Shown piece by piece: positions 9,001-12,000 of a stretch of 64,000 nt of DNA (within the stretch, counting starts at the first letter, position 1; the number at the start of each line of letters is the position of its first letter). The position numbers are program-made. Source of the stretch: Escherichia coli (GTDB lineage Bacteria > Pseudomonadota > Gammaproteobacteria > Enterobacterales > Enterobacteriaceae); the NCBI RefSeq assembly GCF_013315695.1, contig NZ_CP054353.1, one strand, 5' to 3'.

Positions 9001-12000
9001 GGGCAGTCCCGGATAGTCAGGGCTGTAGAGATTTGACTACCCCCTCCCCACTGGATTCAGGTTACTGCTATTCCGTTAAGCGCTGCTTACGGGGATAGCT
9101 GCGTTGTGATTTTGACCATTCAGGTCGCCGCTATTTCCTCACCGATTGGGTGCTACGCGCGCGCGTACTTGTCCCGAAATACCAGAAACCGCCAGCCAGA
9201 GGATGATTTCCCTCTGGTGGTCTACCTTTGCCTCTTGCCGCCATTTAACCGGAAGGCGTTACCGTTCGGTTGCGCTATCCCCATGCGGTGTTGCGTTTCG
9301 GTAACAGCTTTATGCAGGTCGCCAAATTCCTCAACCTTCACGGGCGGGCGCTTCACGTTCTCCAGACACGTTTCACGGCGGCGCTTTATCCATTCCCGAT
9401 CATCGTCCTCGGTGCATAACAGCATGACTTCCATCCATCGTGCGGCAGCTCTCCGGTATAGCCCTTTTGACTCCAGCTCTTCAGCTTTCCTGTCCCTTAT
9501 CATTTCTGCCTCTCAGATTATATAGATAAGCAAAAAGGTGTTGGTTCAGTTGGTTCAGTTGGTTCAGTTGGTTCAGTTGGTTCAATTTGTAAAGATTGTT
9601 GTTTTTATTGTGTTTTTTCTGAAATATTGAACCAACATCAACTCATTTTGAACCAACACAGCCCAGCTCTGAACCAACAACACAGCGATAGATTTGTGAT
9701 TGGTCCGTTATTTTCTGGCTGATATTTGAGCGTATAACAGTGTTATACAGTGGTATACTGTATGGATATTACTCACTGATATGGTCTTTGCAATGAGCAA
9801 ATCTAATCTGGTCGCGTTCCGCATCCCATCTGAATTGCAGGATGAGTTTAATCGGTCTGTTCTCGCTTCTGGAGGAGATAAAACCTCCTGGCTTGTTGAT
9901 GCGATTCGCATGAAGCTGGGGCAGCCGGAAAAGTCTATTGATTCACGAATGCTTGGGCTGGTGGAGCGCATGGAAAAAGCCGCTGCGTCGCTTATTGCCG
10001 GAAAGCCGAACATCCCACCAAAACCATATAACGAAACGGCAGTTATAAAGATCATTGCCGATACCATCCAACAGGGATTTGATAATGGGCGTGTGATAGC
10101 TGAACGGATCAATGAAGCAGGCTATCAAACAAAAGCTGGTAAAGCGTGGGATAAAGATATTTACAGCGCGTGGAAGCGTCAGGGAAGCAATGCTGAAAAG
10201 CTAAAAGCAGTGATTGATTGTAAGGTCAGCGTATAAACATGAGTGCCCATTGGAAAGTTGCTTGGGCCAATACCTTTATACACCAGCAGGTAGTGACGAT
10301 AGGTGAGGATCAGATATGAAAGGCAGAACGCCACACATTGAACATCAAGCCAACCACTTCCCTGATGTTCGCAATGAGATGATTGCCATTCGCGGTGATA
10401 TGCACGGATTGGAGCGTCGAATTATTGATAAGATTGATGAAAATAGAGATAAGGCCAGTGAAAATCAAAAGTGGATCATCGGCCTGTTGATTTTATCAAT
10501 TCTTATCCCGCTACTTATCGCATTGGTCACAAAATGAATATCCAATGTGTATGCTGTCGATGCTACGCGCGCGTACTTGTCGCAAAATATCAGGCAAAGG
10601 CCAGATTCAGAAAGTCGTGATAACCACCAGCACAACATGAGAGGTCATGTAACGCGATTTATCACACCAGATACATGTGATTGGTGTACCCGCATAAAAC
10701 ATCGTCATAGCGCGTCCTGTGCGCATATACGCCGATAATCAACACATCACCACCACTCTGTCTCATGTAGAGAACAGTTTTATGGTATCCCCCGCCATCG
10801 TGTGCGTACTGGTCGGACGCAGTTGCAAAAAATTTTGCAACTGATACCCCTCGCGCGCGTACTGGTCACGAAATTGGTGTTTTGCTGTGGCAGTGATATC
10901 AGAAAAATCTTCCTGTTTCACATAAAGCGGATATGCGCGTACTGTAACGGCCCCATCAACTGGGAGCGGACTTGAAATCCCGACCCAAGCTATGTACCAA
11001 ATGCCATGTCTTGGATATATGATGATTGCCATTCTAAACAACGCTAAAGGGGGTTGGTGTGAGCAGAAAAGATACTAAAGAATTGCTAACTATCTGCATG
11101 GTGTACTTTTCAATTTATTTTTGTGCATACATGATAGTCCCAGATGAGTTTGAACATGGCAGTATTATTTATTCCATAACATTCTATTTTTTAGAGCTAA
11201 CACCAATTTTGGCTATCCTTTTGGGAATACATATTTATTTTTCCTTAAAAAAAGAATCGACTAATTGGGAGAAGGTATGGAGAGACAGAGGATTTCTAAC
11301 ATCACCTAAAGATGATGCATATGAGAGTGATTTTTCTGACTTTATAACAAACTACTACTCCAGCGAACAATTCAAAAATAGACTGTCTGATGTTTGGGAA
11401 ACAGCAATGTATTCCATAGGGATTATATTATTGATACTTACTGGTATTGCTCAATATGTTTTTAACATTGACTTATCATTAAATCCTGAAAATTTAATAT
11501 CGCCATTGATTTTTGGTGAGATATTGATCTTCTCATTCGGAATTTTCTTGAGTGTTGTTCTCTGCTCATTATGCAAGCTACTGACTAACAGGTATCCGGG
11601 TGAAGCAAGGAGAGCAAGAAAGGCAAATCCATATTATCTTTTATTTCCTAATGGAGACAGCAGAGATATCTAAGCCATCCATGGCTAACCAGTTATTGAG
11701 CTTCTTTTTGTGATGCCTGTGCGACTCTGGTGAGCGATTGTGTGACCGTACTGATCGCTCTGTCATATGCTGTGCTACCTTTTGGCGTATTTGCCAGACG
11801 TAACAAGGCATTTCGTATAACAGGGCTTTCGTATGCCTTCGCTGCTCCGCCTACGGCACCAGCAGCAGGAACAACAAACGCAGCCGTTTTTAGCATCCCC
11901 GCTAATACTGCTGCGTTTATGATGCCACCACCAACTAACAATCCATAAAGCTGCTGACCATTTAAGTTTTGAACGTTCGCTTTTGCCGCGTGTCTTGTAT

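What the first reader, a model, noticed from the sequence alone, without database searches (positions are those of the whole stretch)
9540..9678. Perfect 9-bp tandem repeat x5 plus three inverted copies at 21-bp spacing in a divergent promoter region
(GTTGGTTCA)x5 is followed by three reverse-complement copies spaced exactly 21 bp apart, between the PerC-like gene (-) and the 151-aa putative DNA-binding gene (+). The phasing suggests cooperative binding of an oligomeric regulator or initiator. Perfect tandem 9-mers are also slippage-prone and could phase-vary expression.
Basis: seen in the sequence. Interest (0 to 1): 0.6.

Follow-up and report, generated by a model that had tools for sequence, protein, structure and literature searches.

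The report
Orphaned replication-origin repeats of a phage satellite
The repeats are most likely the binding sites (iterons) of a replication origin belonging to a phage-parasitising island (PICI) of E. coli; here they are a second, displaced copy of that origin, left behind after the island lost its replication gene, rather than a switch for the two neighbouring genes.

Summary
(GTTGGTTCA)x5 lies at 9540-9584, a 43-bp spacer (81% A+T) follows, and three inverted copies lie at 9628, 9649 and 9670. These are the only exact copies in 64 kb (0.68 expected).

The window holds a distal mirror copy of that unit. The mobilisable island EcCIMP1 also has one, and it has persisted across genera and in a second iteron class.

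Neither flanking gene is tied to the repeats. Divergent homologs of the 147-aa gene lack them but keep their own palindrome. EcCIMP1 has the unit without that gene. PerC is not the neighbour in other genera.

The window has no Pri-Rep gene, so this copy is orphaned.

Copy number varies in 9-bp steps (2-5). There is no evidence of phase-variable expression.

The parts
9540..9678 (.). One complete PICI-type origin unit: two sets of iterons in opposite orientation flanking an A+T-rich spacer. It is the distal (mirror) copy of the unit that normally follows the Pri-Rep gene.
   Evidence: The same composite unit recurs in more than 100 contigs. It lies directly 3' of the primase-helicase gene in 85 of 87 loci. 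The distal copy is present in EcCIMP1 and in L002, L014, L039, L075, L083, L128, L135 and L138.
9540..9584 (+). Tandem iteron block, (GTTGGTTCA)x5, contiguous at 9-bp period. It begins 36 nt from the PerC start codon.
   Evidence: Related units have 2 or 3 copies (78 primase-proximal units: 58 with 2, 20 with 3). Four copies occur in L001, L053 and L205. Five occurs only here.
9585..9627 (.). A+T-rich spacer of 43 bp (81% A+T), the presumed DNA-melting region. It begins with ATTTGTAAAGA, which is conserved in most units.
   Evidence: GC minimum of 22.5% at 9580-9619. Spacer length of 43 bp and the conserved start are seen in the unit alignment.
9628..9636 (-). Inverted iteron 1 (TGAACCAAC on the + strand).
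9649..9657 (-). Inverted iteron 2, 21 bp (two helical turns) after iteron 1.
   Evidence: The 21+21 spacing is shared by most distal units, including those in other genera.
9670..9678 (-). Inverted iteron 3, 21 bp after iteron 2.

Best explanation
The 139-bp feature is a replication-origin unit of a phage-inducible chromosomal island (PICI) of the EcCIMP1 type. Its 9-mers are iterons. Each is recognised by the C-terminal winged-helix domain of the island's fused primase-helicase initiator (Pri-Rep: zinc ribbon, TOPRIM, DUF927 superfamily-3 helicase, winged helix). By analogy with SaPI Rep, Rep subunits bind the tandem block on one side and the helically phased inverted copies on the other. They assemble around the 43-bp A+T-rich spacer, melt it and load themselves as the replicative helicase once a helper phage induces the island. 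The canonical copy of this unit lies immediately 3' of the Pri-Rep gene. The copy in the window is a second unit in mirror orientation, placed at the far end of a 7-10 kb cargo segment next to perC. In this window the island is a remnant. The Pri-Rep gene and the proximal unit are gone and an IS1 abuts the truncated cargo, so this unit is orphaned. It could fire only if a resident island of the same specificity supplied Rep in trans. Shown: the position, architecture, covariation, fold and persistence of the distal copy. Inferred: binding, melting, and whether the distal copy acts as a second origin or as an auxiliary site like P4 crr.
For: (1) Position. Among 122 loci found by the 18-mer alone, a homolog of the primase-helicase occurs in 87. 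The 147-aa protein occurs in 14 and PerC in 26. In 85 of the 87 the first GTTGGTTCA starts 21-37 nt after the primase-helicase stop codon, with the tandem block nearest the gene.
(2) Architecture. A tandem block, a 43-64 bp A+T-rich spacer, and inverted copies at 11, 21 or 32 bp. This matches the published definition of SaPI and Gram-negative PICI origins: iterons immediately 3' of rep, two sets pointing in opposite directions around an A+T-rich centre (PMC6092414; PMC9371898).
(3) Covariation. In 80 species found with the helicase core alone, the repeated 9-mer downstream of the gene changes with the last ~45 residues of the protein. The association runs both ways. L125, L126, L127 and L129 have cores 90-92% identical to the query, but their wing reads GRVREDGRQIRVYVL and their iteron is GTTGTCTCA. 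Morganella (L180, 61%) and Proteus (L197, 58%) keep RKSPR.DGRQ.NVYVL and keep GTTGGTTCA.
(5) The distal unit tracks Rep. It keeps exact iterons while its flanks and inter-iteron spacers diverge, across E. coli, Cedecea, Chimaeribacter and Rosenbergiella. In E. albertii (L165) both units use a different word, YTGTCCCA, in the same layout.
(6) Reference elements. EcCIMP1, a PICI shown to excise and transfer with phage Kapi1 (PMC11773190), has both units and the same perC allele. The experimentally validated EcCICFT073 origin has the same layout with another 9-mer.
Against: No binding or replication experiment exists for this iteron or this Pri-Rep type. The EcCIMP1 paper does not mention an origin or iterons. 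The window's copy is not next to a rep gene, and no Pri-Rep homolog is in the 64 kb, so this copy may be inert. The 87 loci were selected by the 9-mer itself; the unbiased support comes from the 80 species. Covariation among related elements is not fully independent of phylogeny, although it runs in both directions. The tandem block begins 36 nt from the perC start codon, so an additional effect of Rep binding on perC transcription cannot be excluded.
Confidence: 0.85

Rival explanations
1. The distal unit binds Rep but is not an origin in its own right. It is an auxiliary cis site, either required in cis like the crr of satellite phage P4, or a copy-control or handcuffing site that pairs with the proximal origin through Rep and loops out the cargo.
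For: Two units with identical iterons lie 2.3-10 kb apart in fixed mirror orientation. The distal unit has persisted through divergence of the flanks, across genera and in two iteron classes. From my own knowledge, P4 has the same iterons at ori and crr, and both are bound by the alpha protein.
Against: The distal unit has every feature of a full origin unit, including the A+T-rich spacer. Many elements have only one unit, or two adjacent ones, so a distant second site is not generally required. No sequence relation to P4 alpha or its iterons was found.
Confidence: 0.3
2. This is the first reader's main reading: the repeats are operators in a divergent promoter, bound cooperatively by the PerC-like protein or by the 147/151-aa DNA-binding protein.
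For: The repeats lie between the two divergent genes. The 147-aa protein is plausibly DNA-binding: it has an N-terminal beta-alpha-alpha segment like a ribbon-helix-helix, a confident C-terminal helical domain with weak HTH matches, and one source names a homolog Arc-like.
Against: Seven homologs of the 147-aa gene (69-79% identity) have no 9-mers within 420 bp upstream, yet keep a separate palindromic block directly in front of the gene. EcCIMP1 has the distal unit without that gene. In L039, L083, L128, L135 and L138 the distal unit is not next to PerC. Most copies of the unit lie 3' of the primase-helicase gene, far from either gene. The 9-mer covaries with the Rep C-terminal domain.
Confidence: 0.06
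3. The tandem tract is a contingency locus: slipped-strand changes in copy number switch perC or the 147-aa gene on and off.
For: Copy number differs in 9-bp steps between otherwise identical sequences. H3 is 99.2% identical over 1101 bp and spans 1092 bp of its record, so the 9-bp deletion accounts for the whole 0.8% difference. Alleles of 2-5 copies exist.
Against: The tract lies upstream of the perC start codon, not inside an ORF, and no promoter whose spacing it could alter was predicted. Across about 146 units the number stays at 2-3, and all 78 primase-proximal units have 2 or 3. The 4- and 5-copy alleles I examined lie in Rep-less remnants, which suggests relaxed constraint rather than a selected switch. 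The same tract occurs 3' of a gene in most elements.
Confidence: 0.05
4. The repeats are a packaging (pac/cos) site or a partition (centromere-like) site of the island.
For: Arrays of direct and inverted repeats are typical of centromere-like sites. EcCIMP1 lacks an identified packaging module (PMC11773190).
Against: No ParA/ParB-type genes are in the element. The repeat word covaries with the Rep winged helix, not with any terminase or partition protein. The layout with an A+T-rich centre directly after rep is the validated origin layout.
Confidence: 0.03

Closest known systems
Replication origins of phage-inducible chromosomal islands: SaPI ori, and Gram-negative PICI ori as validated for EcCICFT073 (PMC6092414; PMC9371898)
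   Different: The iterons are 9-10 nt rather than the 5-6 nt of SaPIs. The Pri-Rep here (TOPRIM + DUF927) has no detectable BLASTP similarity to EcCICFT073 Pri-Rep. The copy in the window is not next to rep. It is a second, mirror-oriented unit 7-10 kb away across cargo genes, an arrangement I did not find described.
EcCIMP1, PICI of E. coli MP1 mobilised by phage Kapi1 (PMC11773190)
   Same: It has the same insertion neighbourhood (thrW/proA to yagU) and the same perC allele (WP_000617443). The 61-aa protein (WP_000188903) and the pRiA4b ORF-3 protein (WP_000284450) are the same as in MSB1_4I, the closest relative of the window. The distal origin unit sits in the same place next to perC, and the Pri-Rep is of the same type with a proximal unit 25 nt from its stop codon.
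   Different: EcCIMP1 is intact, has 3 tandem copies rather than 5, and has no 147-aa gene on the other side of the unit (a small HTH gene lies there instead). The paper does not describe its origin or iterons.
ori and crr of satellite phage P4, bound by the alpha protein (from my own knowledge: Ziegelin and Lanka 1995, which is cited in PMC6092414)
   Same: The initiator is multifunctional: primase, helicase and a C-terminal origin-binding domain. The same short iteron occurs in direct and inverted orientation at two cis sites kilobases apart, one of them close to the initiator gene.
   Different: No sequence match to P4 alpha was found among solved structures at E<=1. The iteron word differs (P4 has TGTTCACC). 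The element lacks the P4 genes sid, delta and psu. Whether the distal site is required in cis, as crr is, is unknown.
Repeat arrays bound by ribbon-helix-helix regulators (omega of pSM19035, ParG, ParR centromeres)
   Same: They are contiguous short repeats in direct and inverted orientation, next to a gene for a small protein with a ribbon-helix-helix-like N-terminus.
   Different: The repeats do not travel with that gene. There is no partition ATPase. The repeats covary with the Rep winged helix instead.

Membership tests
PICI/SaPI-type replication origin | Two sets of short iterons in opposite orientation flanking an A+T-rich region | tested here: met
   Five direct and three inverted exact 9-mers lie around a 43-bp spacer of 81% A+T. 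The definition is taken from PMC6092414 and PMC9371898.
PICI/SaPI-type replication origin | Located immediately 3' of the rep or pri-rep gene | tested here: not met
   This is met for the repeat family as a whole: 85 of 87 loci have the first iteron 21-37 nt after the stop codon, and the position holds in the 80 unselected species. It is not met for the copy in the window, which is the distal mirror unit with no Pri-Rep gene within 64 kb.
PICI/SaPI-type replication origin | Cognate initiator is a superfamily-3 helicase with a C-terminal winged helix that specifies the iteron | tested here: met
PICI/SaPI-type replication origin | Rep plus ori drives autonomous replication; deleting ori impairs it | not testable with these tools
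   This is shown only for EcCICFT073, which has a different Pri-Rep family and iteron (PMC6092414).
Gram-negative PICI (the element) | Integrase, AlpA-type regulator, pri-rep and ori, transcribed in one direction; no capsid, tail or lysis genes | tested here: met
   This is met in the intact relatives L002 and L206: integrase, an HTH matching phrog_66 (excisionase/regulator), Pri-Rep and ori, with the genes from the integrase through the lytic transglycosylase all on one strand. They do carry P22-like ejection proteins and a DUF2824 head-morphogenesis gene. In the window only the right-hand end of such an element remains.
Gram-negative PICI (the element) | Helper-phage-dependent excision, replication and transfer | not testable with these tools
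   This is reported for EcCIMP1 with phage Kapi1 (PMC11773190). The window shares EcCIMP1's right-end module.
P4 ori/crr system | Initiator homologous to P4 alpha, and type I iterons TGTTCACC | tested here: not met
   phmmer of the 918-aa Pri-Rep against all PDB chains at E<=1 returned only 8tch and 5dgk. From my own knowledge the PDB holds the P4 alpha origin-binding domain (1KA8), so no match to it was found. The iteron here is GTTGGTTCA.
P4 ori/crr system | Two cis sites with the same iterons, kilobases apart, both needed for replication | tested here: inconclusive
   Two sites with the same iterons 2.3-10 kb apart are present in a subset of elements. The requirement in cis is not testable here. 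Many elements have a single unit or adjacent units.
Operator array of the adjacent regulator (ribbon-helix-helix or PerC) | The repeats co-occur with the regulator gene across relatives | tested here: not met
   Seven homologs of the 147-aa gene have no 9-mers upstream. EcCIMP1 has the unit without that gene. Five distal units have no adjacent PerC.
Phase-variable simple-sequence contingency locus | Repeat tract inside an ORF or promoter spacer, so that copy number switches expression; copy number polymorphic among close relatives | tested here: inconclusive
   Polymorphism is present, with 2-5 copies in 9-bp steps. The tract is outside any ORF and no promoter was predicted across it. An effect on expression was not testable.

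The most novel reading that the evidence does not exclude
This island family has a bipartite origin. Two mirror-oriented Rep-loading units can either abut (about 280 bp) or be separated by 2-10 kb of cargo, and the distal unit is a functional partner that the island needs for efficient replication. That would be a PICI counterpart of P4 ori/crr. It could also couple replication to transcription of perC, whose start codon lies 36 nt from the tandem block. The conserved mirror orientation and the co-change of iteron word at both sites in two specificity classes fit this reading, but no experiment bears on it.
Probability: 0.35. Interest if true: 0.55.

Novelty: new variant of a known kind. Interest (0 to 1): 0.4.

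Why it matters
It replaces a speculative "regulatory repeat" with a concrete and testable assignment: the origin of a widespread E. coli satellite family. The PerC module is in 633 of 5,426 complete genomes. The origin of this family's characterised member, EcCIMP1, has not been described.

The comparison also yields three things that could be used directly:
- A table pairing C-terminal wing sequences of Pri-Rep with their 9-mer iterons across about 55 species. This is a natural data set for a winged-helix recognition code and for predicting which satellites can cross-replicate or interfere with one another.
- Evidence that some islands keep a second, mirror-oriented origin unit kilobases from rep. 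This raises the question of whether PICI replication can be bipartite, like that of P4.
- A practical marker: the iteron unit locates PICI origins and remnants that gene-based tools score as uncertain.

For genome annotation it is also a caution. Perfect tandem repeats between divergent genes need not belong to either gene.

Tried and rejected
- Family searches for the 151-aa protein gave nothing significant. Pfam's best was HTH_62 at i-E 0.52. NCBIfam found nothing above noise. PHROGs gave one unnamed family at 3e-4. The best PDB sequence hit was E=0.27.
- I considered that this protein might be RgdR, which all E. coli PICIs are said to encode. RgdR is a 99-aa protein (PMC3378721), so I rejected that.
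- A literature search for the 9-mer itself returned only unrelated primers. One paper search and one paper look-up failed on a term that was too short.
- megablast against the phage collection found no match. The plasmid collection gave two records, one of which is really a chromosome.
- Rfam gave only a plant microRNA model at 23 bits against a gathering score of 180. That is an artefact of the inverted repeats.
- The promoter and terminator scan of 9400-9900 found nothing.
- I first thought proximal units always space their inverted copies 11+21 bp and distal units 21+21 bp. EcCIMP1's proximal unit is 21+21, so this is a tendency, not a rule.
- The published PICI at the same attachment site as L002 (EcCIRM13514, yicC-dinD) and EcCICFT073 turned out to have another primase family. 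They support the layout but not homology of the initiator.
- The paper's supplements do not list iteron sequences as text.
- My script's "distal/orphan" class also includes proximal units whose primase gene runs off the locus. Only the range of copy numbers should be taken from that class.
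Full report
**1. The observation**

(GTTGGTTCA)x5 occupies 9540-9584 without a mismatch (Tandem Repeats Finder score 90). The reverse complement TGAACCAAC occurs at 9628, 9649 and 9670, exactly 21 bp apart. These eight are the only exact copies in the 64-kb window. Shuffled sequence gives 0.68 on average and never more than 3. The 43 bp between the two sets (9585-9627) is 81% A+T, and the 40-bp window at 9580-9619 has the local GC minimum of 22.5%. A PerC-family ORF (9222-9503, minus strand) starts 36 nt from the tandem block. An ORF of 151 aa (9781-10236, plus strand) lies on the other side.

**2. Where the window comes from**

The window is E. coli chromosome. The PerC / repeat / 147-aa module occurs in 633 of 5,426 complete E. 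coli genomes.

- In O111:H8 strain 7-54 11A it is the right-hand end of an intact integrative element of about 20 kb between yicC and dinD. The gene order is: integrase, an AlpA-like HTH, antirepressor, Ash, several small ORFs, a 918-aa TOPRIM/DUF927 primase-helicase, DUF2824, P22-like DNA-ejection proteins, a lytic transglycosylase, a 73-aa ORF, the 147-aa ORF, the repeats, PerC, a 61-aa ORF, a pRiA4b ORF-3 protein and a 119-aa ORF.
- The same element type in E. coli MP1 is EcCIMP1. This phage-inducible chromosomal island (PICI) was shown to excise and transfer with the P22-like phage Kapi1, and it lies between proA/thrW and yagU (PMC11773190).
- In the window only the right-hand part survives. 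It runs from the 119-aa ORF (7724) to a DNA-transfer protein ORF (11693-13798) that abuts an IS1. No homolog of the primase-helicase is present.

**3. The repeats follow the primase-helicase**

A scan of viral contigs for two tandem copies of the 9-mer returned more than 120 stretches. Almost all show one composite unit: 2-3 tandem copies, a 43-64 bp spacer, then 2-5 inverted copies at 11, 21 or 32 bp, which are whole helical turns.

Homologs of the element's proteins were mapped onto these loci. The primase-helicase is present in 87 loci, the 147-aa protein in 14 and PerC in 26. In 85 of the 87 the first 9-mer begins 21-37 nt after the primase-helicase stop codon, on the coding strand, with the tandem block nearest the gene.

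The proteins fall into two main size classes, about 704-747 aa and 896-943 aa. The two classes share only the C-terminal ~560 residues (helicase plus C-terminal domain).

**4. Covariation with the C-terminal domain**

Those loci were selected by the repeat itself, so I searched one genome per species with the helicase core alone, leaving out the C-terminal domain. In the 80 species returned, nearly every complete gene is followed by a repeated 9-mer in the same layout. The word changes with the last ~45 residues of the protein:

| C-terminal wing | Iteron | Loci |
|---|---|---|
| ...SGRGYQRKSPRI.GRQINVYVL | GTTGGTTCA | about 35 species |
| ...SGRGYQGRVREDGRQIRVYVL | GTTGTCTCA | L125, L126, L127, L129, L136, L166 |
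| Xenorhabdus ...GKTPRLKHLGGIQQRAYIMVL | GTTGTCTCA | several Xenorhabdus loci |
| ...KGITRKSLRIDGKQPRFVVL | GTCGGTTCA | L179, L181, L182, L184; L168 has the variant KGVTRKSL... |
| ...GRYKKRTITVDG.RPLFYVL | AGTGTGTCA | L188, L202 |
| ...DR.K.K.LK.IGGKQHTFY.L | GTAACCCGT | L133, L193 |
| ...GR.KKKALR.MGGKQHVFYVL | GTGGGTTAT | L163, L164 |

The association runs both ways. Cores 90-92% identical to the query carry a different wing and a different iteron (L125, L126, L127, L129). Cores only 58-61% identical (Proteus L197, Morganella L180) keep the wing and keep GTTGGTTCA. Shared ancestry alone does not explain this. It is what initiator-iteron specificity pairs look like.

**5. The protein is a Rep-type initiator**

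- Pfam finds a primase zinc ribbon, a TOPRIM domain and DUF927.
- Residues 402-813 match the SaPI Rep chain 8tch_A at E=5e-12.
- For SaPI Reps the C-terminal winged helix is the part that recognises the iterons. The origin consists of 6-12 iterons directly downstream of rep, with an A+T-rich centre and at least two iterons on each side pointing in opposite directions (PMC9371898).
[quoted passage not shown] - I read that validated origin. Its Pri-Rep is a different protein family. Even so, the DNA begins with two tandem 9-mers (CTGTCTACC) 14 nt after the stop codon, then an A+T-rich stretch, inverted copies, and a mirror tandem pair at the far end.

**6. What the copy in the window is**

Many elements carry two units in mirror orientation. 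In some the two abut, forming a palindromic region of about 280 bp. In others they are separated by cargo.

- The separated form occurs in the intact O111:H8 element and in EcCIMP1, 8-9 kb apart. It also occurs in L014, L039, L075 and L083, in Cedecea (L128), Chimaeribacter (L135) and Rosenbergiella (L138), and apparently in L012 and L194, where the distal iteron cluster lacks a two-copy tandem block.
- The window's unit corresponds to the distal member.
- Across these elements the iterons of the distal unit remain exact, while the flanks and the sequences between iterons diverge.
- Most distal units space their inverted copies 21+21 bp, whereas most proximal units use 11+21. EcCIMP1's proximal unit is 21+21, so this is not a rule.
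- In E. albertii (L165) both the proximal unit and a distal mirror unit 2.3 kb away are built from that element's own word, YTGTCCCA. The layout is the same, and a perC gene lies in the cargo between them.

So the distal unit is an old, maintained feature that follows Rep specificity. It is not a recent duplication.

**7. The rival readings**

- *Operator for the 147-aa protein.* The protein is plausibly DNA-binding. It has an N-terminal beta-alpha-alpha segment like a ribbon-helix-helix and a confident C-terminal helical domain with weak HTH matches, and one source calls a homolog Arc-like. However, seven homologs at 69-79% identity have no 9-mers within 420 bp upstream. They do keep a ~45-bp block directly before the gene. 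In the window this block contains the palindromes GTATAACA/TGTTATAC (9732-9748) and ATACAGT/ACTGTAT (9745-9763). That block, not the 9-mers, is the cis element tied to this gene. EcCIMP1 has the distal unit and no such gene.
- *Operator for PerC.* PerC is the neighbour in E. coli elements, in two alleles, but not in L039, L083, L128, L135 or L138.
- *Phase variation.* Copy number does vary. The closest relative (MSB1_4I) differs from the window only by one 9-bp unit, and the modal number is 3. All 78 primase-proximal units have 2 or 3 copies. The 4- and 5-copy alleles I examined (window, MSB1_4I, O111:H8 8E) are all in remnants without Pri-Rep. This suggests slippage under relaxed constraint. 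No promoter was predicted across the tract.

**8. Mechanism, and what is shown versus inferred**

Shown:
- the layout of the unit;
- its fixed position after rep in the family;
- the covariation with a winged-helix domain homologous to SaPI Rep;
- the existence and persistence of a mirror distal unit;
- the absence of Pri-Rep from the window.

Inferred by analogy with SaPI and EcCICFT073:
- Rep subunits bind the iterons on both sides, melt the A+T-rich spacer and self-load as helicase after helper-phage induction.

Unknown:
- whether the distal unit fires as a second origin;
- whether it is needed in cis like P4 crr;
- whether it only titrates or pairs Rep;
- whether Rep bound 36 nt from the perC start codon affects perC.

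**9. Novelty**

The kind of element is known: the PICI/SaPI iteron origin. In the papers I could search I did not find the following:
- the origin of the EcCIMP1-type (DUF927) islands;
- the wing-iteron pairing across species;
- the separated mirror unit.

I rate the feature a new variant of a known kind, of moderate interest. The copy in this particular window is probably an inert leftover.

Noticed in passing
window 9732-9763 (block 9731-9780): Two overlapping palindromes (GTATAACA/TGTTATAC and ATACAGT/ACTGTAT) lie directly upstream of the 147-aa gene. The block is conserved in front of homologs at 69-79% identity whose upstream regions are otherwise unrelated. It is probably the promoter or operator of that ribbon-helix-helix-like protein.
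   Followed up: partly
window 9781-10236: The 151-aa ORF probably starts at 9793 (147 aa, MSKSNL...). In divergent homologs the upstream ATG is out of frame, and RefSeq also aa. The protein has no Pfam family. The model shows an N-terminal beta-alpha-alpha segment and a confident C-terminal helical domain (pLDDT about 93).
   Followed up: partly
window 11693-13798 and 13863-14560; L002 22721-28067; L206 13481-18827: These satellites carry their own P22-like virion-associated genes: a DUF2824 (gp14-like) head-morphogenesis gene, gp7-, gp20- and gp16-like ejection proteins, and a lytic transglycosylase. These lie between the two origin units. In the window a 701-aa DNA-transfer protein ORF abuts an IS1.
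   Followed up: no
L004, L016, L019, L032, L046 versus L002, L007, L013 and others: The Pri-Rep proteins fall into two main size classes (about 704-747 aa and 896-943 aa). They share the helicase and C-terminal domain but have unrelated N-terminal parts, so the primase module has been exchanged while the iteron specificity was kept.
   Followed up: partly
window 9222-9539; L075 about 12036-12326; L107 about 6948-7238: Two perC alleles only about 51-54% identical overall share nearly the same first ~23 codons and the 36-nt leader next to the tandem block. A recombination breakpoint therefore seems to lie inside perC, with the origin unit and the 5' end of perC moving as one block.
   Followed up: no
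window 9540-9584; L001 20341-20376; L205 (hit H12, match at 12001-13092): All alleles with 4 or 5 tandem copies that I examined are in degraded elements that lack Pri-Rep, in the thrW to yagU region. The intact elements have 2 or 3. The sample is small.
   Followed up: partly
L146 (Yersinia pekkanenii) 7131, 11713, 12894: There are three full iteron clusters within 6 kb. Two of them are near-identical, suggesting tandem or nested islands or a duplicated replication module.
   Followed up: no
L034 3338-3400 and L044 3930-3983 (viral contigs): Seven (L034) and six (L044) tandem copies of the same 9-mer occur with no inverted partners and no homolog of any element protein in the stored flank. The context is unknown.
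   Followed up: no
window 8076-8618 (-) and 7724-8083 (+): A pRiA4b ORF-3 family protein and a 119-aa ORF whose 3' end overlaps its 3' end by a few bases form the conserved right end of the island, next to the attachment site. They have no PHROG match and their function is unknown.
   Followed up: no
window 10316-10537 and 11059-11673: A 73-aa membrane ORF has a weak holin-family match. A 204-aa membrane ORF has a weak match to SieA-like superinfection-exclusion proteins (E=4e-4). They may be accessory or defence cargo of the remnant.
   Followed up: no
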